Shown here: positions 710 to 12,397 of the stretch, piece after piece
Position numbering within the stretch: position 1 is the first letter of the stretch
How the letters are laid out: each line of letters starts with the position of its first letter
Source of the DNA: Candidatus Woesearchaeota archaeon
Lineage (GTDB): Archaea > Nanobdellota > Nanobdellia > Pacearchaeales > GW2011-AR1
Direction: 5' to 3'
Length of the DNA: 12,397 nt
Assembly (NCBI GenBank): GCA_964360985.1
Contig: CAYHYK010000020.1
Span: 1 to 12,397, forward strand
Made by a program: the position numbers and the translations under genes
The notes under the pieces: model-generated
The model's input: the letters and a program-made list of their open reading frames with translations, nothing else
What the model was told of the DNA's origin: nothing
Database searches by the model: none

Positions 710-2233
710 ATGAAAAGGAGGCATATTTTGGCAATTTTAATTGGTTTTTTATTCTTAATTAGTATTTTTTTATTTTTATATAGTCCTAGGCTTTTGGGAT
801 ATGTTACTTTTGGAGATCCTTATTTTAACACTTGTTTAATTAATTTAGTAGATAATTTTTCTCCTTTGAATTCTAAATCTATTGTTTATCTGAAATTTAA
901 TAATCTATCTTCTTATGGAGAATATGATTTAATAGCATGTGATTTCTCTGGACATAATAATACTGCTCTTTTAATCAATCCTATATGGAATAGTTCTGGA
1001 GGGCCTTTTAATGATGGGGCTTTTGAATTTAAGGGGAATAATACTATTAATATTATTGATAGAGATGAATTAAGTCCTTCTACAAGTGGAGCATTTTCAG
1101 TTTCATTTTGGATTAAACCTTCTACATTTAATTTTGATGGAAATGTTTTTGATCACGTATGTGAATGTGCAGTTCATCCTGTTTCTAAATATTCTTCTTT
1201 TTTAGGAAACAATCGAGAATGGTATTTTAGAATATATAACGGGAGTGCAGTTGATGGAGGTACAAATAGACCGAAGAGAATTAGTTTTTATGTATTTAAT
1301 TTAACTGGATCTTTAGGAGCTGGTTCTTACTTTCAAGAGGATTTGAATGAAAGTGAATGGATACATGTTATAGGTGTGATGAACGGAACTCATACTTTTA
1401 TTTATAAAAATGGAATATTGAAAGACTCTGATCCAATTTCTAATTATGATATAACCATGGGGAATGGAAATGCACCTATAGTTTTAGGAGGAATATCTCA
1501 AGGAGGTTATTTCTTGGGCTATATGGATGAATTGAGAATATTTAATAGAACTTTGAATTCTAGTGAAATAAATGAATTGTATAATATTAATTTATCTGTT
1601 GTAGAGCATAGTTTGAATGTAGATATAGTATCTCCTGCTAATATTACTTATAACATTTCTAATTATTCTATAAATATAACTCTAGATGAAGAGGGATATT
1701 GTGAATATTCTCTTGATGGAGGAGTTAGTAATAATAGTTTATTATCTAATGATGATATTGAATTTGGTGTTTTGAAAAATGGAAGTGACGGAGGCTATAT
1801 GATAGAGACTTACTGCAATAATAGTTTAGGAGTCAAGAATTATACTGAAAGAGTTTTCTTTTCTATTAATGTGATAAATAATTCTAATTCTAGCGAGGAG
1901 ATTGTTTTAGATTCTGGAGATTCTGGAGGTTCAAGTTCTTCTGGATCTAGCTCTGGTTCAGACAGTTCAGGAGGAGGTTCAGGAGGGGGCGGTGGTGGAA
2001 ATGTTGTTGATGTTGAGGAAAATAGTGTTGAGGATTCAAATGAAGTTCCAGAACCAGAATCACACACTCCTTTGCCTGATGAAGAAACAGATTCTAATGC
2101 GGAAGGAAGTAGTTTAGTTGGATTGGCTATAAATGAAAATCTGGAGAGAAATAAAAGAAATATATCTGTGGCTTTGACAATTATTGTTTTAGCAGTTGGA
2201 GCTTTTGTTGTATATCTGAAATTTAGAACTTAG
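710..2233 (+). CDS. LamG (Laminin_G_3 / concanavalin-A-like) domain cell-surface protein with Ig-like module, Ser/Gly linker and C-terminal membrane anchor
   Basis: N-terminal KRR + hydrophobic signal/anchor (HILAILIGFLFLISIFLFLY). LamG signature FSVSFWIKP ... WIHVIGVMNGTHTFIYKNG ... LGYMDELRIFNRTLNSSEINELY. A beta-rich module follows (IVSPANITY...CEYSLDGG...YCNNSLGVKNYT), then DSGDSGGSSSSGSSSGSDSSGGGSGGGGGG, an acidic stretch, and the C-terminal TM ISVALTIIVLAVGAFVVYLKFRT. I count about 23 N-X-S/T sequons by hand. Confidence 0.8.
   Translation: MKRRHILAILIGFLFLISIFLFLYSPRLLGYVTFGDPYFNTCLINLVDNFSPLNSKSIVYLKFNNLSSYGEYDLIACDFSGHNNTALLINPIWNSSGGPFNDGAFEFKGNNTINIIDRDELSPSTSGAFSVSFWIKPSTFNFDGNVFDHVCECAVHPVSKYSSFLGNNREWYFRIYNGSAVDGGTNRPKRISFYVFNLTGSLGAGSYFQEDLNESEWIHVIGVMNGTHTFIYKNGILKDSDPISNYDITMGNGNAPIVLGGISQGGYFLGYMDELRIFNRTLNSSEINELYNINLSVVEHSLNVDIVSPANITYNISNYSINITLDEEGYCEYSLDGGVSNNSLLSNDDIEFGVLKNGSDGGYMIETYCNNSLGVKNYTERVFFSINVINNSNSSEEIVLDSGDSGGSSSSGSSSGSDSSGGGSGGGGGGNVVDVEENSVEDSNEVPEPESHTPLPDEETDSNAEGSSLVGLAINENLERNKRNISVALTIIVLAVGAFVVYLKFRT
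1908..2003 (+). repeat. Low-complexity Ser/Gly-coding tract with short tandem repeats (local GC spike)
   Basis: ATTCTGGAG occurs twice in tandem (1911-1919, 1920-1928). GTTCAGGAGG recurs at 1965-1974 and 1977-1986, and is followed by GGGGGCGGTGGTGGA. The tract encodes DSGDSGGSSSSGSSSGSDSSGGGSGGGGGG inside the LamG-protein gene. Confidence 0.6.
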
Positions 2234-3035
2234 TTATCCTATAACTATCAAATTCAACGTCCATAAAATCTGTTCTTATTCCTGTATATCCTTCTGATAA
2301 AATTGGAGAACTTGAATCTGTTGTCTCTAGAATCTTAACCCAGTTTCCTGTCCATCCTAAATCCATATATAGTTTAATATTTACTCGGCTTCCTATATTT
2401 CTTATTTCTGTTTTCAAACCGATCCATGTGTTTTTTGGAAGTAAACTTGGCTTTGATAGTCTATTGTATGTTCCAGAAAATATTTTTTCTGATACTAAGG
2501 TATAATATTTCCCATTAAGTTTCTTTTTTATTATTGCTTCTCCGTCTACCCTTACACCTGAATAATAAAGGGTGTCTCCTCCGCTTATATATCGGCTCAT
2601 TAAAAGAAGTCCATTATGTTCTGCCCTATTTGGACTTAAACTTAATTGATCCTTTTTAATGTTAAAATAGACACTTTGATTGAAATTCTGCCATTTTGAT
2701 CTGGAGACCATTCTAAATATATTCTGTGGATGGTAGCCATTGTCTGTATCTACAGGACTGGAAGCAAGATAAGTTAGGCGCCATGGATCGGTAGATGCTA
2801 AAGCCCCTTGAATTGTTTTTCCCCTACCGTTTAGAAGATTTAATTCTGCTCCTGAATTTAACCACCAGTATGGACTGGTACTAAGAGAGGATGATGCAGA
2901 TTCCTGTAGAATGCCTTCAGTATTAAATGAGTAGTGGAAAGGTGGAGTGATTATTGCTGCGGTTAAAGCTTCAGCTCTGACTAAAATTAAGAGAGTTAAC
3001 ACAGCTGCAAACACTAAAAAAAACCTCAATTTCAT
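2223..3035 (-). CDS. Secreted hypothetical protein, predicted concanavalin-like beta-sandwich; paralogous to the C-terminal domain of the neighbouring deacetylase
   Basis: Long ORF. I prefer the ATG at 3035 (MKLRFFLVFAAVLTLLILVRAEA, a classic signal peptide with an A-x-A-like site) over the TTG at 3050 used in the ORF track, because a TATA box sits 24 nt upstream of that ATG. No catalytic motif recognised. Alternating beta-strand-like pattern throughout. Its stop overlaps the 3' end of the convergent LamG gene by 11 nt. Confidence 0.7.
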   Translation of the reverse strand: MKLRFFLVFAAVLTLLILVRAEALTAAIITPPFHYSFNTEGILQESASSSLSTSPYWWLNSGAELNLLNGRGKTIQGALASTDPWRLTYLASSPVDTDNGYHPQNIFRMVSRSKWQNFNQSVYFNIKKDQLSLSPNRAEHNGLLLMSRYISGGDTLYYSGVRVDGEAIIKKKLNGKYYTLVSEKIFSGTYNRLSKPSLLPKNTWIGLKTEIRNIGSRVNIKLYMDLGWTGNWVKILETTDSSSPILSEGYTGIRTDFMDVEFDSYRITKF

Positions 3036-3058
3036 ACAAATATGAGACAAAAATATGC

Positions 3059-3065
3059 TATATAA
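3059..3065 (-). promoter_or_regulatory. Archaeal TATA box (minus strand CCTTATATAG) for the secreted beta-sandwich gene
   Basis: The minus strand reads TTTCCTTATATAGCATATTTTTGTCTCATATTTGTATG. The TATA ends about 23-24 nt before the ATG at 3035, implying a leaderless transcript from that ATG. Confidence 0.45.
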
Positions 3066-3120
3066 GGAAATAATATTCTCTAAAGATTGCTTTAGGAAAT
3101 AGAGGTTAGATTGATTTTAT

Positions 3121-3126
3121 AAAAAA
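3121..3126 (-). terminator. Oligo-T (T6) archaeal terminator candidate after the deacetylase gene
   Basis: The minus strand reads TAA GAAAAGAGCTAATTTTTTAT directly after the stop at 3139-3141. Oligo-T tracts are the usual archaeal intrinsic termination signal. Confidence 0.45.
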
Positions 3127-3138
3127 TTAGCTCTTTTC

Positions 3139-4767
3139 TTATATAGATATAATTATTCTATCTGTAGTTAAAGAAACTGGAGAGGATGGGTCCCAAACTG
3201 CAAATCCTATTCCGCCATTTGTAGGCATATCTTTAACATCTCTTGAAAGGATTACTTTTCCGTTGAATAGGCAGGATACTTTATCTCCATCTACTTTTAT
3301 TCCGACTTCGAAATTCTCATTTGGTAGTTTTAGGTATTTTATCCTTTTTGAAAATATATTTGTTTTTACATTGTTTACACTCTTAATTATTTGAAGGAAA
3401 TCTTTGGAGTATGTACAAGTTACATAGTCTGTAGGGCTAGAAATTCTGGCAATCATACTAAGTGCTTCTGCTTGATATTCTTTTACCTTAAGAGTGAAAG
3501 TGTAATTTTGCCAGGGGTAACTTCCATCTAAGAAAGTAAATGCACTTGTATCTCCAAGTTGGGAGAGAAGTGTTAGAGTTCCTTTTGTATCTATAAGTTT
3601 TCCTTCATGATCTGCAAAAGCTTTGAATTTTATATCTGAGTTAGTATCATATGGTAATTCTTTAGTTGTTCCAAATTCTAGATATTTCAATAGTTTTTCA
3701 CCTTCCCAGTTTGCACTTGGCTTAAGTCTCTTTATTAACGCTCTTTCTGTAGTAGATGGATAATTGAATGTATATCCTTCTCCAACCCAAGTTTGATAGA
3801 ATGCAAACTCAAATAATGAATTAACTGTAGAAATAACTACTTTTTGTGAGGAAGGATAATTAATTGTATCTTTTCCGTAATCTCCAAATGGATAGGCAAA
3901 AGTTGTGGAATTTACCCCAAATGTTTCTTTTAGAGCTAACTTTGCTTCGTTCATATCATTATAAATTCTTGTTTTAAATTCTTCATCTGTTTCAAGTCTA
4001 TTTTCTTCTGAAAGCCATAATTTATCGCTATAGAAATGTCCTTTTGTACCATCTTCTGCTATAACTGGGGTTCCATGACCTAGACCTGCATGTGTTTCTA
4101 ACTGCCACGTTCCACTATCAATCATTTTCTGAAGTTCAGCTATATTAAGATGGTATTTGTAGGTCTGTTTTTCTGGATTAAGAGATTCTCCAGTTATAAC
4201 AAACATAACTGCATTGTAATCTACTGCTTTTAATATTGGATCTGCGCCATAAAATGAGTCTTTTCTTCCATCGTCAAATGTTAATAAAAATGATTTTGCA
4301 GGTAATTGCTTTTCTCCTCTCATGAAAGCATTAAATTCTTCCATTTTTACAGTCTGCCATCCTGCTTTTTTTAGTGCAAACATTTGATCCTTAAATGTAC
4401 TTACAGATAGACTATAACCTTCTCCATCAGTTGATTCATCAGAATTTACTCCATGGTAGACTAATACTGGAATAGATTCTGCATAACCTAATTGTGTGGA
4501 ATCTATTAGAGCGTAGTTTTCCTGTGCTTGTAAAGATTCTGTATAATTCTTATATTCTAAAGAGTATCTATAGTAATTTAGACTTAAAAATGATAGTTTT
4601 AAATAATAATTACCTTTTTCATATGGGTCAAAATCAGTTATATTCTTTACAAGAGGAATATCTTCTCTATAATAGTCTATCGTGAATTGTCCGCCTATGA
4701 TTAGAATTACGAAAAAAGTTATCATTATAGTAAACATTAGTTTTATTTTAATTAGGTCGTCTTTCAT
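3139..4767 (-). CDS. Membrane-anchored polysaccharide de-N-acetylase (CE4 / NodB-homology, PgaB/IcaB-like) fused to a C-terminal beta-sandwich domain
   Basis: N-terminal TM (IKLMFTIMITFFVILIIGG). CE4 motifs in order: IPVLVYHGV, LLTFDDGRKDSFY (TFDD), ETHAGLGH (His-x4-His spacing), FAYPFGDYG. About 180 further C-terminal residues are beta-rich and non-catalytic. I prefer the ATG at 4767 (GGGGGA 7 nt upstream; TAATG overlap with the GT2 stop) over the TTG at 4782 in the ORF track. Confidence 0.85.
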   Translation of the reverse strand: MKDDLIKIKLMFTIMITFFVILIIGGQFTIDYYREDIPLVKNITDFDPYEKGNYYLKLSFLSLNYYRYSLEYKNYTESLQAQENYALIDSTQLGYAESIPVLVYHGVNSDESTDGEGYSLSVSTFKDQMFALKKAGWQTVKMEEFNAFMRGEKQLPAKSFLLTFDDGRKDSFYGADPILKAVDYNAVMFVITGESLNPEKQTYKYHLNIAELQKMIDSGTWQLETHAGLGHGTPVIAEDGTKGHFYSDKLWLSEENRLETDEEFKTRIYNDMNEAKLALKETFGVNSTTFAYPFGDYGKDTINYPSSQKVVISTVNSLFEFAFYQTWVGEGYTFNYPSTTERALIKRLKPSANWEGEKLLKYLEFGTTKELPYDTNSDIKFKAFADHEGKLIDTKGTLTLLSQLGDTSAFTFLDGSYPWQNYTFTLKVKEYQAEALSMIARISSPTDYVTCTYSKDFLQIIKSVNNVKTNIFSKRIKYLKLPNENFEVGIKVDGDKVSCLFNGKVILSRDVKDMPTNGGIGFAVWDPSSPVSLTTDRIIISI

Positions 4768-6158
4768 TATCTTGTCCCCCAAGCCATATTTCTAAGGTCA
4801 TATAAAGCATACAACATTATATATGAAAGAACAGTCATGTTTAGAATGGACCAGAGAATCATATATTTTCCATATTTCTCTATTGTGTATATATTGTAAT
4901 GCATAAAGAGCATTGTTGAAACTAAAATTATACCTACTACATAATAGAAAGGGGAGGTACCAAAGAAAAGAGGATTTAATATTAATGCTTTGAACGCGAT
5001 TATAGGAGTTAATAATGTTAAAACTATTAATGGAATAAAATATGTAAATGCGACAAATTTATCTTTCTTCACCAGGAAAGGAGTTATTTTAATTGAATTA
5101 ATAAGCCACCCTTTTTTCCATCTAACTTGCTGTTTTAAGAATGTTTTTAATTTATTTGGAACTACAGTGTAAGCTTTTGCATTTGCAACATAAATTGTTT
5201 TATGTCCCCCTCTTAATATCCAATTTGTCAATGCTCTGTCATCACCGAATATAATTGTTTTGCCCATGAATTTTTCATCTATCCATTTGTCCAAAATAGG
5301 CATAATGTAACTCTTTCTATAAGCAGAGAAACATCCAGAGCAACAGAAAACCATATCAAAAACACTTTCTGTTGCTTTCAATGTTCTGAAGGAAGTGAAA
5401 TAGTATGCAGCTTGCATTCTTGTCATTAAATTTTCATCTTTATTTGAAGGGTCAGTGTGACCTACTGTAGCACCCACTCTCTTATCTATAAATGGATTAA
5501 TTAATTCTTTTAGAGCATCCTTTTCAGGATAACTATCGCTATCTACTTGGATAACTATTTCTCCAAAAGATTTTTTGAAACCAACGTACATACCTATTCT
5601 TTTACCTTGATTTTTCTTGAAATCGATAATTTTTAATCTTCTTCCTGGACTATCTTTTTTAGCTCTATTCATTTCATTAAGAGTATTATCAGTAGAGCCG
5701 TCATTTATTGCAATAACTTCGATTTTATCTGCAGGATAGTCTGAATTTAAACAACTTGTAATTGTATTATAAATTGCTTTTTCTTCGTTTTTACAAGGTA
5801 CTACAAAACTAACTGTAGGGTAATAAGTGGATAATTTTTCTAATTTCTTTTTGTCTAATTTATTTCTATAATCTCTATAAAAGAATGAACCTAAAACTCT
5901 GCTCAACATAAAAGTAGTTATGAATATACTGTAGAAATAGATAAGATTTATTCCTGGGAAATTAATTATTTTTAATAGAACAACTAGAATTGTAAAGATT
6001 ATCAATAGAGTTGTATAAACGACTATTTCCAATTTACTTCTTTTTTGCTTTAGATATGTTGATTCTTTGTTTTGTGAAATATTATTTAGCTGAGAGTTTT
6101 CTTGGATGATATTTTTATTTGTAGAGTTTAAAGACTTACTTTCAATTTGTGATTGCAT
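4767..6158 (-). CDS. Processive family-2 glycosyltransferase, HasA / NodC / chitin-synthase-like membrane-embedded polysaccharide synthase
   Basis: Polar 40-aa N-terminus and two N-terminal TMs. Cytoplasmic GT-A domain motifs: VVPCKNEE, AINDGSTD, VDSDSY, CSGCFSAYRK, GDDRALTN, KQQVRWKKGW. At least three C-terminal TMs, and the protein ends in AWGTR. The motifs are collinear with recalled Streptococcus HasA (VDSDTY, CSGPLSIYRR, GDDRCLTN, KQQNRWNKS, EWGTR). Confidence 0.9.
   Translation of the reverse strand: MQSQIESKSLNSTNKNIIQENSQLNNISQNKESTYLKQKRSKLEIVVYTTLLIIFTILVVLLKIINFPGINLIYFYSIFITTFMLSRVLGSFFYRDYRNKLDKKKLEKLSTYYPTVSFVVPCKNEEKAIYNTITSCLNSDYPADKIEVIAINDGSTDNTLNEMNRAKKDSPGRRLKIIDFKKNQGKRIGMYVGFKKSFGEIVIQVDSDSYPEKDALKELINPFIDKRVGATVGHTDPSNKDENLMTRMQAAYYFTSFRTLKATESVFDMVFCCSGCFSAYRKSYIMPILDKWIDEKFMGKTIIFGDDRALTNWILRGGHKTIYVANAKAYTVVPNKLKTFLKQQVRWKKGWLINSIKITPFLVKKDKFVAFTYFIPLIVLTLLTPIIAFKALILNPLFFGTSPFYYVVGIILVSTMLFMHYNIYTIEKYGKYMILWSILNMTVLSYIMLYALYDLRNMAWGTR
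4775..4780 (-). promoter_or_regulatory. Shine-Dalgarno-like GGGGGA for the deacetylase, inside the 3' end of the GT2 gene
   Basis: The minus strand reads TTGGGGGACAAGATAATG, with a 7-nt spacer to the ATG at 4767. The ATG shares its A with the GT2 TAA stop. Confidence 0.5.
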
Positions 6159-7437
6159 TTAAACCCCTCCCAATACCCTCATAATATATGCTGGAGTTGA
6201 TTTGATTTAATTTTATACAGTTTTTTCCATCGATAAGGATTTTAACATTTTTCCAGTTCTTTATTGAAAGGAATTCTGCGTGGTTTGTTGCTATAATTAC
6301 ACCTACACAATTGTTTAATACGTCATTTAGCTTAGCATCAGAGTGACCATTAACATGAGGATCATGACAGATAACTTTAGCACCTAACTTAATTAATTCT
6401 TCTTTTATTTCAAGAGCTGGACTTTCCCTCATATCTCCAATATTGGCTTTATATGAAAGACCTAATATTCCTACTTTTGCGCCTTTCATTTTTATTCCTC
6501 TCTTGGAAAGGGCTGCAACTAATTTGTTTACAGTATATTTAGGCATTGAATTGTTAACTGATCTTGCTATTTTGAGGAATTTATGATTGAATCCAAGTTG
6601 TCTTGCTTTTTCTATTAAATAATAAGGATCTACTGGGATACAATGTCCTCCAACTCCGCATCCAGGATAGTGAGGCATGAAAGCGAAAGGTTTTGTTGAT
6701 GCTCCTCTTATTACTTCCATTATATCTATTCCGAAAAGATCGAAAAATTGAGCTAATTCATTAACGTAGGCTATGTTTATGTCTCTAAAAGTATTTTCAA
6801 CTATTTTTGTTGCTTCAGCAGCTTTCAGAGTTGAAACTTCATTGATATTTGCTTTAATGAATGAACGATAAAAATCAGCTGCTAATTTTGTTCCTTTTTT
6901 AGTTATTCCACCAATATTTCTAGGGATATTATAAACATTCCAGTTTTCATCTCCAGGGTTAATTCTTTCTGGACAATGTATTAATTCAAAGTCTTTTCCG
7001 CCTTTTAGACCTGTTTTTTCCAAAATAGGAAGCATAACTTCTTCTGATACACCAGGATTAACAGTGGATTCTAAAATTATAAATTGCCCTTTTCTAAGAT
7101 TTTTGGCAATTGATTCTGTTGCTTTAATTACTGGTGTTAGATCTGGTCTTTTTTTATGATTGACTGGAGTAGGTACACAGATTATAATAAATTTCATATC
7201 TTTTAGTATGGTGGAGTCGGTTGTGGCATTAATTTTAACTTCTTTTATATCTTTTGAAGCTTGTGCATCTTCAACTGGAGAAATTTTATTTTTTATTAAA
7301 TTTATCTTTTTTTCGTCTATATCAAGACCGAAAACATTATAATTTTTATTTCTTGCAATTGCACATGCTAGCGGGAAACCCACATAGCCCATTCCTATAA
7401 CTGCAACATTTGATTTGATTTGACTTTTGTTCATCAT
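6142..7437 (-). CDS. Nucleotide-sugar 6-dehydrogenase (UDP-glucose/GDP-mannose dehydrogenase family; motifs favour the UDP-N-acetylhexosamine WbpA/TviB/Cap5O-type clade)
   Basis: Rossmann start VAVIGMGYVGFPLA. Also ILESTVNPGVSEE, HCPERINPGD, the catalytic-Cys segment PGCGVGGHCIPVDPYYL, and the C-terminal UDP-binding-domain pattern VGILGLSYKANIGDMRESPAL. The start is either of two tandem ATGs (7437 or 7434). Confidence 0.9.
   Translation of the reverse strand: MMNKSQIKSNVAVIGMGYVGFPLACAIARNKNYNVFGLDIDEKKINLIKNKISPVEDAQASKDIKEVKINATTDSTILKDMKFIIICVPTPVNHKKRPDLTPVIKATESIAKNLRKGQFIILESTVNPGVSEEVMLPILEKTGLKGGKDFELIHCPERINPGDENWNVYNIPRNIGGITKKGTKLAADFYRSFIKANINEVSTLKAAEATKIVENTFRDINIAYVNELAQFFDLFGIDIMEVIRGASTKPFAFMPHYPGCGVGGHCIPVDPYYLIEKARQLGFNHKFLKIARSVNNSMPKYTVNKLVAALSKRGIKMKGAKVGILGLSYKANIGDMRESPALEIKEELIKLGAKVICHDPHVNGHSDAKLNDVLNNCVGVIIATNHAEFLSIKNWKNVKILIDGKNCIKLNQINSSIYYEGIGRGLNAITN
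6164..6171 (-). promoter_or_regulatory. Strong Shine-Dalgarno GGGAGGGG for the GT2 gene, embedded in the last codons of the dehydrogenase
   Basis: The minus strand reads GGGAGGGGTTTAAATG, with a 5-nt spacer to the ATG at 6158. The dehydrogenase continues 17 nt past this ATG, so translational coupling is likely. Confidence 0.6.
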
Positions 7438-7455: not shown

Positions 7456-7463
7456 TTTATAAA
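7456..7463 (-). promoter_or_regulatory. Archaeal TATA box (minus strand AGAAAGATTTATAAAC, purine-rich BRE-like 5' flank) for the dehydrogenase-synthase-deacetylase operon
   Basis: The TATA ends 19-22 nt before the tandem ATGs at 7437/7434, which fits a leaderless first gene of the operon. Confidence 0.45.
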
Positions 7464-8785: not shown

Positions 8786-8805
8786 AATATTTTATAAATT
8801 TTTGG

Positions 8806-8817: not shown

Positions 8818-8872
8818 ATGGTATTGTATTAGTACCACAAATGTTTAAGTACGATTCTAATTGGAAAAACCA

Positions 8873-9685
8873 ATGAACTTACAAAATAGAATAAAGAAAT
8901 TTATCTTCGGATCTGCCTTAGTCTTGGCTCTCATTCCTGGCAAGATAGAAAGCGATGATATTTACAAGGGAGTAAGAGGACCTACGAATTGGCAGGCTGA
9001 TCTAAGAGTAGGATATACAGAAAGAGAAGATCAAAAAGGCAACTTCACAAAAACATTCTCAAATAATGAGGTTTTGAAGTATTGGAACGGTGAAGATATA
9101 GGAATATTTGGCTTTGTCAATGTTCCAGCATATAAATCAATTGAAACAAACAATTCTAAAAGTGAAGGTTTTGGAGATTTAACTATTGGTTTAGGTCCTA
9201 GAGCTAAATTTGATTCTGAGAAACTAGGCTCCATTCACTTTATTTCTTACGCAGGAGTTAGTTTACCCACTGGAGATGAAAAGAAAACTCCTCCACTAGG
9301 GAATGATAGAATAGACTTTAGGAGTGGAATATTTGCCACATATTTAACTCCTGATAAAGGTATAGAAACAGACTTTTCTTTTGAACATAGTCTAGCAGGA
9401 ACTAATAGTAAAGGTGTTAGAGGACTAGACGAAATGTCTACTGGATTAATTGTAGGAACAAAATTGACGGATAATAATTTGTTTAGAATTGGTTTAGGGT
9501 TGACTTCTAGATTGAGAGAAAATGCAGAAAGTAAATTTGACTATTCATATGGATCTAGAGCGGTACTAAGAGTAACCCCTCCAAAAACAAACTGGCATGT
9601 TGAATTAATAGGAGACTATGATCTGGAAAGTAAAAATCTTCCTGAAGGTTTTGGAGCTAGTTTACAATTAAGAATTAACTTTTAG
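8873..9685 (+). CDS. Signal-peptide protein resembling a 12-stranded outer-membrane beta-barrel (MetA-pathway/'transporter' PF13557-like)
   Basis: I prefer the ATG at 8873 (MNLQNRIKKFIFGSALVLALIPG signal peptide); the ORF track starts at the TTG at 8861. About 12 amphipathic alternating segments, for example ADLRVGYTE, IGIFGFVNV, FGDLTIGLG, IHFISYAGV, FRSGIFATY, TDFSFEHS, GLIVGTKL, FRIGLGLTS, RAVLRVT, HVELIGDY. The C-terminal GFGASLQLRINF ends in Phe, as in a bacterial OMP beta-signal. The fold call is from pattern only. Confidence 0.55.
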   Translation: MNLQNRIKKFIFGSALVLALIPGKIESDDIYKGVRGPTNWQADLRVGYTEREDQKGNFTKTFSNNEVLKYWNGEDIGIFGFVNVPAYKSIETNNSKSEGFGDLTIGLGPRAKFDSEKLGSIHFISYAGVSLPTGDEKKTPPLGNDRIDFRSGIFATYLTPDKGIETDFSFEHSLAGTNSKGVRGLDEMSTGLIVGTKLTDNNLFRIGLGLTSRLRENAESKFDYSYGSRAVLRVTPPKTNWHVELIGDYDLESKNLPEGFGASLQLRINF

Positions 9686-10981: not shown

Positions 10982-11778
10982 TATTGTGTTTCCTCCTTAT
11001 GATTTTTGTTAATGAGACTTTCAATAGCTTTTTCTTCTGCATTGGCTTTTGCGAAAATATAAGAGATTGTTTCTTTACATACATATCCTATTTTTGCTGC
11101 AAAACCTAAAGATTTTCCTATTGCTGACCTTAATTCTTCAAAGGCAGACTTCTTATCTATTACAATATTAGCATAAACTTGGTCTGAAACTGAATCGTAA
11201 GCTGCAACCGGTATAAAACCTACTTTCATAGGGAAAATATTAAGTTTACTTAAAACTGAGGCAACATTTTCTTTAATTGGTTCTCCCTTTTTTGCTACAA
11301 CTACAGATTGTTTTATCGCTAGTTTTCCACCTTCTACTGCTACTTTAAGTCCGACTGAAGATAACTCTGAAATTGCTGGACCTGGAATAAGATCTGTTGG
11401 TCCAGGTTCTACTGTAATATCTTCAAAAGGGATATCTCCTGTTTTTGCTTTAGTAGGTGATTGATTGTCTGCTAAAATACCTGATAATTCAAAAGCATCT
11501 AGATCTGAGAAGAAAAGGGCGATATCTGCAGTAATATACTCTTTAATATTCTGTAATGCTCCTTTTTCGGTGGATGAAATTGCCCTTAGTATTAATGATT
11601 TCTTTGCAACTCTAATATCTACTTTTCCTCTTAGATTCTTTTTTATTGAATGAAATTGAGATGAAGGAAGGTTTTTTGTTGATACTATTAAAAGAGTTTT
11701 ACTATGTTTTATTTTATCTACTAAAGAACTAACAATTTTCTTTTTATCTGTTAAATTTGCAGTAACTAACTTTGACAT
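10981..11778 (-). CDS. rpl10: 50S ribosomal protein uL10 (P0), unusually short form lacking the conserved C-terminal stalk tail
   Basis: It sits between uL1 and P1. The N-terminal uL10 domain carries LVDKIK..KTLLIVS..NLPS.QF..IKK.LRG...IRV.KKSL. An inserted domain II is present ([21 protein letters not shown]...[12 protein letters not shown]). The protein ends ...[36 protein letters not shown] at 265 aa. Confidence 0.9.
10992..10996 (-). promoter_or_regulatory. Shine-Dalgarno GGAGG for rpl12 (P1)
   Basis: The minus strand reads AAGGAGGAAACACAATAATG. Confidence 0.6.
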
Positions 11779-11779
11779 T

Positions 11780-12397
11780 TTAATTTACCTCCACTCTTAT
11801 AGGTTTTGACATTGTCAATTTTATCATTACACTTTTGATATTATCTCTTTTCTTTGGCAAAGCGTTTGCAATTCCATTGTAAACTGCTTGTATATTCTCA
11901 ATTATCTCTTCTTGTTTCATACTTTCTTTTGCTACAGAAATTTTAACGCTTGCTTCTTTAACTCTTATTTTTAGTGATTTTGATATTTTTGTTAATTCGT
12001 TCTTTATTGCATCTGGAGTTTCATGCATAATTATTCCTAACTGAGGAGAAGGCATTTTACCTGCAGGACCTAAAATTTTACCAAAAGTTGTCGCTACTGA
12101 CGGCATTAATGGTGCAGCTGCAATGAAGAAATCGTACTGTTTTATTAAATTTTTAAGAGATTTTTTATCTTTATACTGTGCAAATTCTAGTTTTGAAATT
12201 GTAGGTAATAAATCAGACTTTTTATCTAAAAATCCGCAAACTTTCTTCTCTTTTACTTTATGAGGAACATTAATTATTGCACTTATATTTTCTTTTCTTA
12301 AGTCAAGACCTTTTAAATTTACAATTAAGTCTATAGACTGCGCGAATTTTCGCTTTTTCTCTTTAGCTAATTCTTCTAATGCTGATTTTACATTCAT
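11780..12397 (-). CDS. rpl1: 50S ribosomal protein uL1
   Basis: Has KRKF.QSIDL.VNLKG.DL.K...I, FIAAAPLMP.V....GKILGP.GKMP and IKVSVAKESM. The position upstream of P0/P1 matches the archaeal L1-L10-L12 operon. The ATG occupies the last three bases of the window, so the CDS looks complete (205 aa), but its upstream region is not visible. Confidence 0.93.
   Translation of the reverse strand: MNVKSALEELAKEKKRKFAQSIDLIVNLKGLDLRKENISAIINVPHKVKEKKVCGFLDKKSDLLPTISKLEFAQYKDKKSLKNLIKQYDFFIAAAPLMPSVATTFGKILGPAGKMPSPQLGIIMHETPDAIKNELTKISKSLKIRVKEASVKISVAKESMKQEEIIENIQAVYNGIANALPKKRDNIKSVMIKLTMSKPIRVEVN
11788..11792 (-). promoter_or_regulatory. Shine-Dalgarno GGAGG for rpl10 (P0)
   Basis: The minus strand reads GTGGAGGTAAATTAAAATG. 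The uL1 stop lies 1 nt before the P0 ATG. Confidence 0.6.

What the first reader, a model, noticed from the sequence alone, without database searches (positions are those of the whole stretch)
3139..7437. Translationally coupled sugar-dehydrogenase / HasA-like synthase / PgaB-like deacetylase operon: a synthase-dependent exopolysaccharide system in an archaeon
Seen: three minus-strand genes are welded into one translational unit. The dehydrogenase and GT2 overlap by 17 nt (6142-6158), and a GGGAGGGG Shine-Dalgarno for the GT2 is embedded in the last dehydrogenase codons. The GT2 TAA and the deacetylase ATG share a base (TAATG, 4769-4765), with GGGGGA upstream. A T6 run (3126-3121) follows the deacetylase, and one TATA box (7463-7456) precedes the first gene. 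The GT2 carries, in order, PCKNEE / INDGSTD / VDSDSY / CSGCFSAYRK / GDDRALTN / KQQVRWKKGW / terminal AWGTR. These are flanked by two N-terminal and at least three C-terminal hydrophobic helices. Established (recalled, not searched): Streptococcus pyogenes HasA has VDSDTY / CSGPLSIYRR / GDDRCLTN / KQQNRWNKS / EWGTR in the same order. The (G/E)(D/E)DRxLT, QxxRW and WGTR signatures are shared by class I hyaluronan synthases, NodC and chitin synthases, which both polymerise and translocate GlcNAc-containing beta-glycans. Synthase plus UDP-sugar 6-dehydrogenase is the hasA-hasB (streptococcal and chlorovirus) arrangement. Synthase plus CE4 de-N-acetylase is the PgaC-PgaB / IcaA-IcaB arrangement. 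Inference: this operon merges both logics. It should make and export an acidic and/or partly de-N-acetylated GlcNAc-based surface polymer without Wzx/Wzy or ABC exporters. I am not aware of a characterised archaeal system of this kind. For a small-genome, possibly host-attached archaeon, such a capsule or matrix polymer could matter for adhesion.
Basis: partly seen in the sequence, partly recalled or inferred. Interest (0 to 1): 0.8.

Follow-up and report, generated by a model that had tools for sequence, protein, structure and literature searches.

The report
Conserved surface-polysaccharide cassette in tiny archaeon
A small-genome archaeon carries a tightly packed, so far unstudied four-gene set, shared with hundreds of other ultra-small archaea and bacteria, that most likely makes, exports and chemically trims a sugar polymer built from N-acetylglucosamine for the cell surface.

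Summary
Three minus-strand genes, a sugar-nucleotide dehydrogenase, a membrane GT2 synthase and a CE4 deacetylase, overlap by 17 nt and by one base (TAATG), and all quoted motifs are present.

The GT2 is a processive, HAS/NodC/chitin-synthase-type enzyme. Hyaluronan synthases are its best structural matches, with Foldseek E 1e-22. It is not a HasA orthologue: in a rough tree it forms its own clade beside NodC+HAS and lacks a HAS-conserved arginine.

The dehydrogenase is not HasB-like. It belongs to the UDP-N-acetylhexosamine 6-dehydrogenase group. The deacetylase resembles PgaB only in its catalytic domain, where all catalytic residues are kept. It has no GH153 domain.

It encodes a secreted ConA-like jelly-roll protein of a family with no Pfam hit. 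It follows the deacetylase in about half of related loci and is sometimes fused to it.

The cassette is not unique. 528 reference genomes carry the synthase, mostly DPANN archaea and CPR/Patescibacteria. Some sources already auto-label it 'hyaluronan synthase'. I found no characterisation in the library searched.

Best reading: a synthase-dependent system for a GlcNAc-based, partly de-N-acetylated and possibly acidic surface polymer. It is a new variant of a known kind.

The parts
7456..7463 (-). TATA-box-like TTTATAAA preceded by a purine-rich AGAAAGA. Candidate promoter of the operon. The first gene is probably leaderless.
   Evidence: Sequence read. The element lies 19-26 nt upstream of the DH ATG at 7437. 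It is one of 4 copies in the window, 3 of which are intergenic and upstream of genes. Promoter function is inferred.
6142..7437 (-). Nucleotide-sugar 6-dehydrogenase, 431 aa, of the UDP-N-acetylhexosamine dehydrogenase group (WecC/Cap5O/TviB/WbpO-like). It is not the Ugd/HasB type.
   Evidence: Pfam N, central and C domains. NCBIfam scores: archaeal UDP-ManNAc DH 315 bits, TviB 271, WecC 237, against AglM 156, TuaD 154 and Ugd 74. Best PDB sequence hits are 4r16, Cap5O and 3g79. The Rossmann motif GMGYVG and the catalytic-Cys motif GGHCIPVDP are present.
6164..6171 (-). Shine-Dalgarno-like GGGAGGGG for the GT2, lying inside the last DH codons.
   Evidence: The GGAGG core is at 6170-6166, 7 nt before ATG 6158. 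The same motif and spacing precede the internal genes P1 and L10 of the ribosomal operon in this window.
4767..6158 (-). Processive membrane GT2 synthase, 463 aa. Layout: disordered N/Q/S-rich tail (1-40), 2 transmembrane helices, GT-A domain (about 110-335), interface helix with QQVRW, 3 transmembrane helices, and a C-terminal WGTR gating-loop motif.
   Evidence: Pfam Glycos_transf_2 and Chitin_synth_2. NCBIfam NodC 184 bits and PgaC 141 bits, both below cutoff. AlphaFold pLDDT 89.4. Foldseek top hits are Xenopus HAS1 (E 1e-22, TMq 0.71) and chlorovirus HAS. The family profile scores 143 and 129 bits on HAS against 42 bits on chitin synthase.
4765..4769 (-). TAATG stop/start overlap that couples the GT2 to the deacetylase.
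   Evidence: The same junction type recurs in related loci.
3139..4767 (-). Membrane-anchored deacetylase, 542 aa. Layout: N-terminal transmembrane anchor (about aa 10-30), a spacer of unknown fold (about aa 31-95), PgaB-type CE4 catalytic domain (about aa 96-340, nt 3748-4482), and a C-terminal domain of about 200 aa that is probably a ConA-like beta-sandwich (aa 341-542) with two conserved cysteines.
   Evidence: Pfam Polysacc_deac_1. NCBIfam hits only the N-terminal part of PgaB, 94 bits. Best PDB sequence hits are BpsB, PgaB and IcaB. H105, D165, D166, H226 and H231 are at least 95% conserved and align to PgaB H55, D114, D115, H184 and H189. The C-terminal domain has a weak 3keto-disac_hyd hit, E 0.035, and an hhalign match to the ORF2223 family at 39% probability.
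3116..3126 (-). TTTTTTATAAA. This is the T-run after the deacetylase stop (possible terminator) and overlaps a TATA-like element.
   Evidence: Function is ambiguous. Not tested.
3059..3066 (-). CTTATATA, a candidate TATA box about 27 nt upstream of ATG 3035 of the fourth gene.
   Evidence: Read. Inference only.
2223..3035 (-). It encodes a 270-aa protein with a signal peptide or anchor and a ConA-like beta-jelly-roll, from a family with no Pfam or NCBIfam hit. An alternative TTG start lies at 3050.
   Evidence: No Pfam or NCBIfam hit. More than 1000 homologues, and every source name among the 120 listed is 'hypothetical protein'. 692 cluster representatives among 1.84 billion proteins. AlphaFold pLDDT 94.6. 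Foldseek hits CBM66, legume lectins and GH131. It lies directly downstream of the deacetylase in 37 of 72 assessable loci. It is fused to CE4 in P0498, P0499, P0507 and P0379.
710..2233 (+). Loosely associated LamG_3 surface protein with N- and C-terminal transmembrane segments. It converges on the fourth gene.
   Evidence: Pfam Laminin_G_3. Homologues lie beside the cassette in L004/L015 and L008, and one ORF in L029 combines an ORF2223-type domain with a LamG-like region. Membership of the system is uncertain.

Best explanation
This is a four-gene, synthase-dependent surface-polysaccharide cassette for a cell with a single membrane.

Proposed mechanism (all steps are inferred by homology unless marked otherwise):
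1. The GT2 is a membrane-embedded processive synthase of the HAS/NodC/chitin-synthase type. It takes UDP-GlcNAc at a cytoplasmic GT-A site.
2. That site carries DxD (D206/D208), GDD (D306/D307), QxxRW (343-347) and a C-terminal WGTR gating motif.
3. The GT2 extrudes the growing beta-linked chain through its own transmembrane helices. No Wzx/Wzy, ABC exporter or outer-membrane porin is needed.
4. Outside the membrane, a type-II-anchored PgaB-type CE4 metalloenzyme removes some N-acetyl groups. This makes the chain partly cationic.
5. The C-terminal ConA-like domain of the CE4 and the separately encoded ConA-like jelly-roll protein (2223-3035) bind, retain or trim the polymer.
6. The upstream dehydrogenase oxidises a UDP-N-acetylhexosamine, either UDP-GlcNAc or UDP-ManNAc, to the uronic acid. 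I think this is used as a second donor, so that this organism's polymer is acidic or zwitterionic. I give that step about 55%.

What is shown here: the gene order, the couplings, the domain identities, the conserved catalytic residues, the fold similarity and the synteny.

What is not determined: the linkage (beta-1,4, beta-1,3 or beta-1,6), the chain length and the composition.
For: GT2:
- Full-length fold match to hyaluronan synthases, including the transmembrane region.
- Profile scores of 143 and 129 bits on HAS through to the WGTR motif.
- In a 100-replicate NJ tree it falls in a 100%-supported clade with NodC and HAS that excludes PgaC and IcaA.
- Invariant DxD, GDDR, QQxRW and W-T-R, plus conserved acceptor-site Cys and Gly, across 56 homologues.
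- WGTR is the essential gating loop of HAS (PMC11750622).

CE4:
- Its best solved relatives are all PNAG deacetylases.
- Its five catalytic and metal-binding residues are at least 95% conserved.
- An N-terminal anchor and a conserved Cys pair argue for an extracytoplasmic location.

Synteny:
- A deacetylase lies immediately downstream of the GT2 in 80 of 82 loci.
- The fourth gene lies directly after the deacetylase in 37 of 72 loci and somewhere in the locus in about 50.
- The dehydrogenase is adjacent in 21 of 71 loci.
- Rosetta-stone fusions of CE4 with the ORF2223 domain exist.

Link to a uronic-acid donor:
- The dehydrogenase is translationally coupled to the GT2 here and in relatives.
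- A different, Ugd-type dehydrogenase occupies the same slot in L017.

Behaviour as an exopolysaccharide system:
- A Paenibacillus homologue is a PilZ-GT2 fusion flanked by CE4 and GH18 genes.
- MASE1-PAS sensor proteins lie in 16 CPR loci.
- No exporter family is conserved in the neighbourhoods.
Against: - No biochemical data exist for any member of the family. The literature searches returned only a passing annotation in Parcubacteria MAGs.
- The GT2 is below every curated equivalog cutoff: NodC 184 against 550, PgaC 141 against 422. Product identity is therefore open.
- NodC, one of the two closest characterised families in the tree, makes short oligomers and not a polymer.
- Dehydrogenase adjacency is patchy, and DH+ and DH- synthases interleave. 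For example, L068 is 81% identical to DH-less L070. The uronic acid may therefore be dispensable or used elsewhere.
- The closest archaeal relatives use a different deacetylase family, DUF2334.
- The tree is neighbour-joining on 285 columns, has no chitin-synthase sequences, and uses fragments for two HAS sequences.
Confidence: 0.7

Rival explanations
1. It is a genuine hyaluronan system, equivalent to hasA-hasB. The GT2 alternates GlcNAc and GlcA, and the dehydrogenase supplies UDP-GlcA.
For: HAS enzymes are the best structural and sequence matches among solved proteins. The GDDRxLTN, QQxRW and WGTR motifs are HAS-like. JGI labels relatives 'hyaluronan synthase'. The carboxylate-contacting residues K177 and R341 of CvHAS are conserved as K186 and R346. 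Both lie in motifs (GKR, QxxRW) that I know to be common to processive GT2s, so they do not discriminate. One related locus, L017, has a Ugd-type dehydrogenase.
Against: The dehydrogenase scores far better on the UDP-HexNAc dehydrogenase models than on the UDP-glucose dehydrogenase models, the reverse of true HasB. The GT2 clade sits outside the HAS+NodC group. The HAS-conserved Arg348 is Ile353, and the GLYG motif is absent. A deacetylase has no role in hyaluronan synthesis, yet it is the most conserved partner.
Confidence: 0.07
2. It is a PNAG (beta-1,6-GlcNAc) system equivalent to PgaC-PgaB or IcaA-IcaB. The dehydrogenase is unrelated to the polymer.
For: The CE4 catalytic domain is closest to BpsB, PgaB and IcaB, including the PgaB-type insertion and the H-x4-H spacing. 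The GT2-then-deacetylase pairing mirrors ica and pga. PgaC is the second-best NCBIfam model.
Against: The GT2 groups with NodC and HAS to the exclusion of PgaC and IcaA, with 100% bootstrap. tblastn matches to PgaC stop at residue 350, whereas HasA and NodC align through to WGTR. No PgaD- or IcaD-like small partner is present. No GH153 domain is present.
Confidence: 0.12
3. It makes a plain chitin/chitosan-like beta-1,4-GlcNAc homopolymer or oligomers. The dehydrogenase feeds another pathway, such as N-glycans.
For: Pfam Chitin_synth_2 hit and the CSGCFSAYR motif. NodC is the best NCBIfam model. The Paenibacillus relative is clustered with a GH18 gene. Dehydrogenase adjacency is optional and is interleaved among near-identical synthases.
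Against: The dehydrogenase and GT2 are translationally coupled here (17-nt overlap) and adjacent in 21 related loci. Two different dehydrogenase subfamilies have been recruited to the same slot. Chitin synthases are much more distant than HAS, at 42 against 143 bits.
Confidence: 0.25
4. The GT2 is a non-processive dolichyl-phosphate or N-glycosylation glycosyltransferase. One relative is auto-named as an AglC-like glucuronosyltransferase.
For: An NCBI name on P0062. Weak NCBIfam AglG hit, E 3e-4. The N-terminal half of the GT-A domain matches many such enzymes.
Against: Those matches cover only residues of about 113-230. HAS, NodC and HasA align through QxxRW, the C-terminal transmembrane helices and WGTR. 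The fold search ranks HAS, BcsA and CHS first.
Confidence: 0.03

Closest known systems
Class I hyaluronan synthases (streptococcal and Bacillus pXO1 HasA, chlorovirus CvHAS, vertebrate HAS)
   Same: Membrane-integrated GT2 with two N-terminal transmembrane helices, a GT-A domain, interface helices and C-terminal transmembrane helices. Shares the DxD, GDDRxLTN, QQxRW and WGTR gating-loop motifs. Best Foldseek and profile matches. 31.7% identity to pXO1 HasA.
   Different: It forms a separate clade. Arg348 of CvHAS corresponds to Ile, GLYG is absent, and Ser345 corresponds to Gly or Ser. The protein ends at WGTR, without the helices TMH5-6 of CvHAS and vertebrate HAS. Its partner dehydrogenase is of the UDP-HexNAc type, not HasB. 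It always has a deacetylase partner.
NodC chitooligosaccharide synthase, with NodB
   Same: Best NCBIfam model, aligned end to end and ending at WGTR. 28-34% identity. It is also paired with a CE4 (NodB-homology) enzyme.
   Different: The score of 184 bits is far below the 550 cutoff. No NodA or NodIJ is present. The CE4 here is membrane-anchored, about 2.5 times larger and of the PgaB type, so it acts outside the cell. (From my own knowledge, not searched: NodB is a small cytoplasmic enzyme, and NodC has a single N-terminal transmembrane helix.) Here there are two N-terminal helices.
PgaABCD / IcaADBC PNAG systems
   Same: The logic is the same: a synthase plus an extracytoplasmic CE4 de-N-acetylase. 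The CE4 catalytic residues and insertion match PgaB and BpsB.
   Different: The GT2 lies outside the PgaC/IcaA clade. There is no PgaD or IcaD, no PgaA porin and no GH153 domain. ConA-like modules are present instead.
UDP-N-acetylhexosamine 6-dehydrogenases (WecC, Cap5O, TviB, WbpA/WbpO, P. horikoshii 4r16)
   Same: Best-scoring models and structures for the dehydrogenase. The catalytic Cys motif is conserved.
   Different: It is below all equivalog cutoffs (315 against 750, 271 against 592, 237 against 459). No WecB-type 2-epimerase is present in the cassette. The substrate, UDP-GlcNAc or UDP-ManNAc, is therefore unresolved.
CBM66, legume-lectin and DUF1080 ConA-like jelly-rolls
   Same: The predicted fold of the fourth protein: TM-score 0.76-0.79 normalised to CBM66, E 4e-9.
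   Different: No sequence-detectable relative in the PDB, Pfam or NCBIfam. It is about 100 residues larger than CBM66. It has about 36 invariant positions, many of them charged or aromatic, which is more typical of an enzyme or a very specific binder.

Membership tests
Processive membrane GT2 synthases (HAS/NodC/CHS/BcsA type) | GT-A domain with the DxD, GDD/TED and QxxRW motifs in order | tested here: met
   D206-S-D208, G305-D-D-R308 and Q343-Q-V-R-W347 are invariant in 56 homologues.
Processive membrane GT2 synthases (HAS/NodC/CHS/BcsA type) | Catalytic domain embedded between transmembrane helices, with overall fold similarity that includes the membrane part | tested here: met
   AlphaFold pLDDT 89.4, with 2 plus 3 transmembrane helices and an interface helix. 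Foldseek gives HAS1 at E 1e-22 and TMq 0.71 over 460 columns, followed by BcsA and Chs1/2.
Processive membrane GT2 synthases (HAS/NodC/CHS/BcsA type) | An open transmembrane glycan channel | not testable with these tools
Only conserved polar and aromatic residues in the transmembrane helices could be seen (R87, Y373, Y406, Y432).
Class I hyaluronan synthase | WGT(R/S) gating-loop motif | tested here: met
   W460-G-T-R463 lies at the C-terminus, and W, T and R are invariant. Its role is taken from PMC11750622.
Class I hyaluronan synthase | HAS-conserved residues beyond the generic motifs (Arg348 of CvHAS, GLYG motif) | tested here: not met
   Arg348 corresponds to Ile353, and the family consensus is KKGW-F/L-I-N. 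GLYG aligns to YSIF.
Class I hyaluronan synthase | Phylogenetic placement inside the HAS clade | tested here: not met
   NJ tree with 100 bootstraps. The DPANN/CPR family forms its own clade (85%, or 100% with the Paenibacillus sequence), beside a NodC+HAS group (75%). The method is rough.
Class I hyaluronan synthase | Partner UDP-glucose 6-dehydrogenase (HasB) | tested here: not met
   The window dehydrogenase scores 156, 154 and 74 bits on the Ugd-type models against 315 on the UDP-ManNAc DH model. pXO1 HasB scores 570 and 406 against 192.
NodC (TIGR04242) | Score at or above the curated equivalog cutoff | tested here: not met
   183.7 bits against a cutoff of 550.
PgaC/IcaA (TIGR03937) | Score at or above the curated cutoff, and clade membership | tested here: not met
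   141.4 bits against 422.3. It lies outside the PgaC/IcaA pair in the tree.
PgaB (TIGR03938) | CE4 catalytic residues His55, Asp114, Asp115, His184 and His189 | tested here: met
   H105, D165, D166, H226 and H231 align to them and are at least 95% conserved in 85 sequences.
PgaB (TIGR03938) | Full-length architecture with the C-terminal GH153 domain, and score at or above the cutoff | tested here: not met
   Only profile positions 4-218 of 621 match, at 94 bits against 322. The C-terminal 200 aa give only a weak ConA-like hit.
UDP-N-acetylhexosamine 6-dehydrogenase group | Better fit to the UDP-HexNAc dehydrogenase models and structures than to the UDP-glucose dehydrogenase ones | tested here: met
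   The pattern is consistent in the archaeal and CPR cassette dehydrogenases.
UDP-N-acetylhexosamine 6-dehydrogenase group | Substrate identity (UDP-GlcNAc, UDP-ManNAc or UDP-GalNAc) | not testable with these tools
   All equivalog cutoffs are missed. No 2-epimerase is conserved nearby.
Synthase-dependent exopolysaccharide secretion systems | Synthase and polymer-modifying enzyme co-encoded, without Wzx/Wzy or ABC export genes | tested here: met
   80 of 82 loci have a deacetylase directly after the GT2. Clustering of neighbouring ORFs found no conserved exporter; an ABC transporter occurs in only 6 loci.
Synthase-dependent exopolysaccharide secretion systems | Production of a secreted polymer | not testable with these tools
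   Requires an experiment.

The most novel reading that the evidence does not exclude
The cassette makes a previously undescribed glycosaminoglycan-like polymer. It would be built from GlcNAc/GlcN and an N-acetylhexosaminuronic acid, and so would be zwitterionic after partial de-N-acetylation. This polymer would be a shared envelope or attachment matrix of ultra-small episymbionts in both domains, DPANN archaea and CPR bacteria, spread between them by inter-domain gene transfer. The fourth gene would found a new jelly-roll family of polymer-specific glycanase, lyase or anchoring lectin.
Probability: 0.2. Interest if true: 0.8.

Novelty: new variant of a known kind. Interest (0 to 1): 0.6.

Why it matters
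DPANN archaea and CPR bacteria are thought to live attached to host cells. I found no description of the molecules that build their surfaces or mediate that contact in the papers I searched.

This cassette is one of the few compact systems with an interpretable function that is shared across both radiations. 528 species-level genomes carry the synthase motif pair, with 41-72% identity across the two domains among the 80 best loci.

If it makes a GlcNAc-based, partly deacetylated and possibly acidic polymer, three things follow:
- It would be, as far as I could find, the first synthase-dependent exopolysaccharide pathway described for archaea.
- It would be a candidate adhesion or envelope polymer for episymbionts.
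- It would be a source of a new glycosaminoglycan-like material and of a new carbohydrate-active protein family.

It also corrects a propagating automatic annotation ('hyaluronan synthase') that the evidence here does not support.

Tried and rejected
Literature:
- Eight full-text searches combined hyaluronan synthase, chitin synthase, PNAG and polysaccharide deacetylase with DPANN, CPR, Patescibacteria, Saccharibacteria and Woesearchaeota.
- They found only one passing mention of a 'hyaluronan synthase' annotation in Parcubacteria MAGs (PMC6064768).
- PMC9530719 and PMC9938205 were checked and are irrelevant.

Fourth protein (ORF2223 family):
- A sequence-profile search of the family against the PDB found nothing; the best hit was E 1.4 on a His-tag artefact.
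- Pfam at E up to 1 found nothing.
- An hhalign comparison between the CE4 C-terminal domain and the ORF2223 family gave only 39% probability. This is suggestive of a shared ConA-like fold but is not proof.
- Pairwise BLAST among the CE4 C-terminal domain, ORF2223 and the LamG protein was negative.

Relationship of the two deacetylase types:
- BLAST between the long CE4 and the DUF2334 proteins matched only the N-terminal anchor. They are treated as different families.

HAS specificity:
- I looked for HAS-specific carboxylate-binding residues. K177 and R341 of CvHAS are conserved here, but they lie in motifs (GKR, QxxRW) that I know to be common to processive GT2s, so they do not discriminate.

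Other checks:
- The viral fold library added nothing beyond giant-virus HAS- and CHS-like proteins.
- Rfam and tRNA scans of the window were empty.

Rejected readings:
- A non-processive Dol-P or N-glycan transferase.
- Chance adjacency of the genes. Synteny in 80 of 82 loci and the fusion proteins rule this out.

Full report
**1. Observation**

The window is AT-rich, about 30% GC. It carries archaeal-type ribosomal genes: P1 (TIGR03685), L10 (PRK04019 type) and L1 (PRK04203). The 'archaeon' premise therefore holds.

On the minus strand lie three ORFs:
- a 431-aa dehydrogenase, 7437..6142;
- a 463-aa GT2, 6158..4767;
- a 542-aa deacetylase, ATG 4767..3139.

- the 17-nt overlap;
- GGGAGGGG at 6171-6164, with its GGAGG core 7 nt from the ATG;
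- TAATG at 4769-4765;
- GGGGGA at 4780-4775;
- the T6 run at 3126-3121;
- TTTATAAA at 7463-7456.

GGAGG is over-represented in the window: 22 copies against 8.9 expected, and 0 of 200 shuffles reach 22. It sits 7-10 nt before three internal operon genes on this strand: GT2, P1 and L10. The first gene, in contrast, has a TATA-like element 19-26 nt upstream of its ATG and no Shine-Dalgarno sequence. That is the usual archaeal pattern of a leaderless first gene followed by Shine-Dalgarno-led internal genes.

TTTATAAA is not enriched overall, at 4 copies against 2.4 expected. However, three of the four copies are intergenic and upstream of genes.

There are two caveats:
- GGGGGA is forced by the conserved Trp-Gly-Thr codons of the GT2.
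- The T6 run is part of TTTTTTATAAAA, which could equally be a promoter element for the next gene.

**2. The three proteins**

- UDPG_MGDP_dh N, central and C domains in the dehydrogenase;
- Glycos_transf_2 plus Chitin_synth_2 in the GT2;
- Polysacc_deac_1 in the deacetylase.

*GT2: sequence and structure.*
- Its best NCBIfam models are NodC (184 bits, aligned end to end) and PgaC/IcaA (141 bits). Both are far below their curated cutoffs.
- Among solved structures, hyaluronan synthases are the best sequence hits. They align from the GKR motif to the terminal WGTR.
- With a 56-sequence family profile, HAS scores 143 and 129 bits. Chitin synthase scores 42 bits and cellulose synthase 36-39 bits.
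- An AlphaFold model built on that alignment is confident: pLDDT 89.4, pTM 0.87. It shows two N-terminal transmembrane helices, a GT-A domain, an interface helix carrying QQVRW, and three C-terminal transmembrane helices.
- Foldseek ranks Xenopus HAS1 first (E 1e-22, TMq 0.71 over 460 columns), then chlorovirus HAS, then BcsA and fungal chitin synthases.

*GT2: identity and tree.*
- tblastn against plasmids gives 31.7% identity to pXO1 HasA (164 bits) and 28-34% to NodC (about 145-150 bits).
- It gives 26-27% to PgaC (about 120 bits), and those matches stop at residue 350.
- It gives 35% to an uncharacterised Paenibacillus GT2.
- I built a neighbour-joining tree on 285 columns with 100 bootstraps. 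The family forms its own clade (85%, or 100% with the Paenibacillus sequence). That clade sits beside a NodC+HAS group (75%). Both lie inside a 100%-supported clade that excludes PgaC, IcaA and a haloarchaeal GT2.
- This tree is rough. It has no chitin-synthase sequences, and two HAS sequences are fragments.

*GT2: HAS-specific residues.*
- The HAS literature names GLYG, DxDT, GDDR, QxxRW and WGT(S/R) as the conserved motifs. It shows that WGTR is the essential gating loop (PMC11750622).
- The window protein has DxDS, GDDR, QQVRW and WGTR, but not GLYG.
[quoted passage not shown] It corresponds to Ile353 here, and Ile is the family consensus.
- The residues that contact the GlcA carboxylate, K177 and R341, are conserved. 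Both lie in motifs (GKR, QxxRW) that I know to be common to processive GT2s, so they do not discriminate.
- The GT2 therefore works like a HAS/NodC/CHS-type synthase but is not a member of any of those named families.

*Dehydrogenase.*
- It scores 315 bits on the archaeal UDP-ManNAc dehydrogenase model, 271 on TviB (UDP-GlcNAc 6-dehydrogenase) and 237 on WecC.
- It scores only 156, 154 and 74 bits on the UDP-glucose dehydrogenase models AglM, TuaD and Ugd.
- Its best solved relatives are the P. horikoshii UDP-ManNAcA dehydrogenase, Cap5O, and a Methanosarcina UDP-GalNAcA dehydrogenase.
- Cassette dehydrogenases from CPR bacteria show the same pattern. The true HasB of pXO1 shows the opposite pattern, at 570 and 406 against 192 bits.
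- The 'hasA-hasB' analogy is therefore only loose. The likely product is a UDP-N-acetylhexosaminuronic acid.
- No WecB-type epimerase is conserved nearby. This mildly favours UDP-GlcNAc as the substrate, but I could not resolve the question.

*Deacetylase.*
- Only residues of about 100-303 match PgaB, at 94 bits against a cutoff of 322.
- The best PDB hits are BpsB, PgaB and IcaB. They include the long PgaB-type insertion.
- H105, D165, D166, H226 and H231 align with PgaB H55, D114, D115, H184 and H189. They are at least 95% conserved in 85 homologues.
- The N-terminus is a Lys-flanked hydrophobic anchor. The C-terminal domain has two conserved cysteines. The enzyme should therefore face outward.
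- The C-terminal 200 residues are not GH153. They give a weak 3-keto-disaccharide-hydrolase (ConA-like) hit at E 0.035. One relative has that Pfam hit precomputed, and a Paenibacillus relative gives a weak Laminin_G hit.

**3. Surroundings and relatives: the unit is larger and widespread**

*Distribution.*
- The GT2 has 1269 homologues at E below 1e-10. The closest, at 59-72% identity, come from Nanobdellota, Nanoarchaeota, Woesearchaeota and Pacearchaeota MAGs. JGI names many of them 'hyaluronan synthase'.
- A scan of one genome per GTDB species found 528 genomes encoding a relative.
- Among the 80 best, about 17 are DPANN archaea. Most of the rest are CPR/Patescibacteria, with a few Anaerolineales and Actinomycetes. 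Identity ranges from 41 to 72%.

*Synteny.* I searched the ORFs of these loci with the window proteins. In 82 non-redundant loci:
- a deacetylase lies directly after the GT2 in 80 loci, made up of 66 with the long PgaB-type CE4 and 14 with a DUF2334 protein of about 300 aa;
- the dehydrogenase lies directly upstream in 21 of 71 assessable loci;
- a homologue of window ORF 3035..2223 lies directly after the deacetylase, on the same strand, in 37 of 72 assessable loci, and somewhere within the locus in about 50.

All-against-all clustering of neighbouring ORFs found no other widely conserved family. The exception is a MASE1-PAS sensor family present in 16 CPR loci. An ABC transporter appears in only 6 loci, and no Wzx/Wzy-like family emerged.

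*The fourth gene.*
- It has no Pfam or NCBIfam match.
- It has more than 1000 homologues, and every source name among the 120 listed is 'hypothetical protein'.
- It has 692 cluster representatives among 1.84 billion proteins.
- Its AlphaFold model is very confident, at pLDDT 94.6. It shows an N-terminal helix (signal or anchor) followed by a beta-jelly-roll.
- Foldseek gives CBM66 (TM 0.76-0.79 normalised to the target, E 4e-9), legume lectins, GH131, and the beta-sandwich of a GH43.
- A family profile finds nothing in PDB sequences.
- The domain occurs in tandem, up to three copies in one protein.
- It is fused to the C-terminus of the CE4 protein in P0498, P0499 and P0507, and it flanks the CE4 on both sides in P0379. 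This is Rosetta-stone evidence for a shared function and compartment.
- About 36 positions are invariant, many of them His, Gln, Asn, Arg, Asp or Tyr. That would suit either an enzyme (glycanase or lyase) or a highly specific lectin. I cannot decide between these.

**4. Further clues**

- In this window the fourth gene has its own TATA-like elements: CTTATATA at 3066-3059, 27 nt before ATG 3035, and TTTATAAA at 3123-3116. It may therefore be transcribed separately from the three coupled genes (inference).
- The closest archaeal synthases (L001-L016) pair with DUF2334, not the long CE4. The window's CE4 has one 61% relative, and otherwise 34-47% relatives that are mostly from CPR. The deacetylase slot has therefore been filled by two different families.
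- The dehydrogenase slot is also filled in two ways. L017, from an uncultured archaeon, has an AglM/Ugd-type enzyme there, at 224 against 98 bits. This argues that a UDP-uronic acid is functionally tied to the synthase.
- Against that, DH+ and DH- synthases interleave. Ten of 22 DH+ loci have a DH- nearest relative, and L068 is 81% identical to L070. The uronic acid may therefore be optional, or the gene may lie elsewhere in those genomes. I could not test this.
- The Paenibacillus homologue is a PilZ-GT2 fusion flanked by CE4 genes and a GH18 gene. This is what one expects of a c-di-GMP-controlled exopolysaccharide synthase acting on a GlcNAc polymer.
- A haloarchaeal plasmid carries a DUF2334-GT2 pair.

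**5. Mechanism**

The best-supported model is a synthase-dependent pathway suited to cells with a single membrane.
- Polymerisation from UDP-GlcNAc takes place in the cytoplasm.
- In this organism a UDP-HexNAc uronic acid is probably a second donor.
- The GT2 extrudes the chain itself.
- The anchored CE4 then partly de-N-acetylates the chain outside the cell.
- The two ConA-like modules bind, retain or trim the polymer.

Shown here: gene order, coupling signals, domain identities, conserved catalytic residues, fold similarity, synteny and fusions.

Inferred: substrates, processivity, topology and the roles of the ConA-like modules.

Unknown: linkage, chain length and composition.

The rivals are listed separately with their tests. 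They are true hyaluronan, PNAG, a plain chitin/chitosan polymer with an unrelated dehydrogenase, and a non-processive transferase.

**6. Novelty and verdict**

The kind of system is known: synthase plus extracytoplasmic deacetylase, as in pga, ica and nod, and synthase plus dehydrogenase, as in has.

What is new:
- the particular combination;
- a synthase clade distinct from HAS, NodC and PgaC;
- a UDP-HexNAc-type dehydrogenase partner;
- an unclassified jelly-roll partner family;
- a distribution centred on DPANN archaea and CPR bacteria.

I found no characterisation in the literature library. The only mention was a passing note of a 'hyaluronan synthase' annotation in Parcubacteria MAGs. The proteins themselves are already in public databases with generic or probably wrong automatic names.

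I rate this a new variant of a known kind, with interest 0.6.

Noticed in passing
window 8861-9685 (+): A 274-aa ORF with a signal-like N-terminus hits Pfam Phenol_MetA_deg (PF13557) at 38.6 bits against a cutoff of 22. To my knowledge this family consists of bacterial outer-membrane beta-barrel proteins, which is odd on an archaeal contig. It has no PDB sequence match.
   Followed up: partly
window 710-2233 (+): A LamG_3 surface protein with an N-terminal transmembrane segment, a Ser/Gly-rich linker and a C-terminal transmembrane anchor. Its 3' end overlaps the 3' end of the fourth cassette gene by 11 nt. Homologues lie next to the cassette in L004/L015 and L008. One ORF in L029 (10589-12271) combines an ORF2223-type domain with a LamG-like region.
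   Followed up: partly
window 6166-6170, 10992-10996, 11788-11792 (minus strand); 3116-3123, 7456-7463, 8791-8798: GGAGG sits 7-10 nt before the internal operon genes GT2, P1 and L10. TTTATAAA sits in three intergenic regions upstream of first genes. This suggests leaderless first genes and Shine-Dalgarno-led internal genes in this DPANN-like archaeon.
   Followed up: partly
L001-L016 (for example L003 7326-8288, L013 7245-8150): The closest archaeal relatives of the synthase are followed by a DUF2334 protein of about 300 aa, with a conserved 16-nt overlap, instead of the long PgaB-type CE4. This is a non-orthologous replacement in the deacetylase slot.
   Followed up: partly
L017 3102-4067: In an uncultured archaeon the slot upstream of the synthase holds an AglM/Ugd-type UDP-glucose dehydrogenase (224 bits on AglM against 98 on the UDP-ManNAc DH model). 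It is possibly truncated at 321 aa. It replaces the UDP-HexNAc-type enzyme.
   Followed up: partly
L085 (Paenibacillus cellulositrophicus plasmid NZ_CP045296.1) 2550-10180: This is the best homologue found among plasmid records, and it comes from a cultured isolate. It is a 625-aa PilZ-GT2 fusion, preceded by a CE4 gene and followed by a 589-aa CE4 gene and a GH18 gene. It could be a tractable model for the family.
   Followed up: partly
L069 12258-13331 and 15 other CPR loci: MASE1-PAS membrane sensor proteins recur within a few kb of the cassette in CPR bacteria. This hints at signal-controlled polymer production.
   Followed up: partly
L091 (Halorussus halophilus plasmid) 2688-5215: A haloarchaeon carries an overlapping DUF2334-GT2 pair. 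Its GT2 branches between the PgaC/IcaA pair and the HAS/NodC group in the tree. Cultured archaea may therefore also have related synthase-deacetylase pairs.
   Followed up: no
window 6039-6158 (GT2 residues 1-40): The window's synthase has a 40-residue extension rich in Asn, Gln and Ser, with pLDDT below 50. Relatives align only from about residue 37, so the extension appears to be lineage-specific.
   Followed up: no
L026, L027, L032, L034, L056: Contigs labelled as Gammaproteobacteria or Pseudomonadales MAGs carry cassettes indistinguishable from the CPR type. This could be mis-binning or recent transfer.
   Followed up: no
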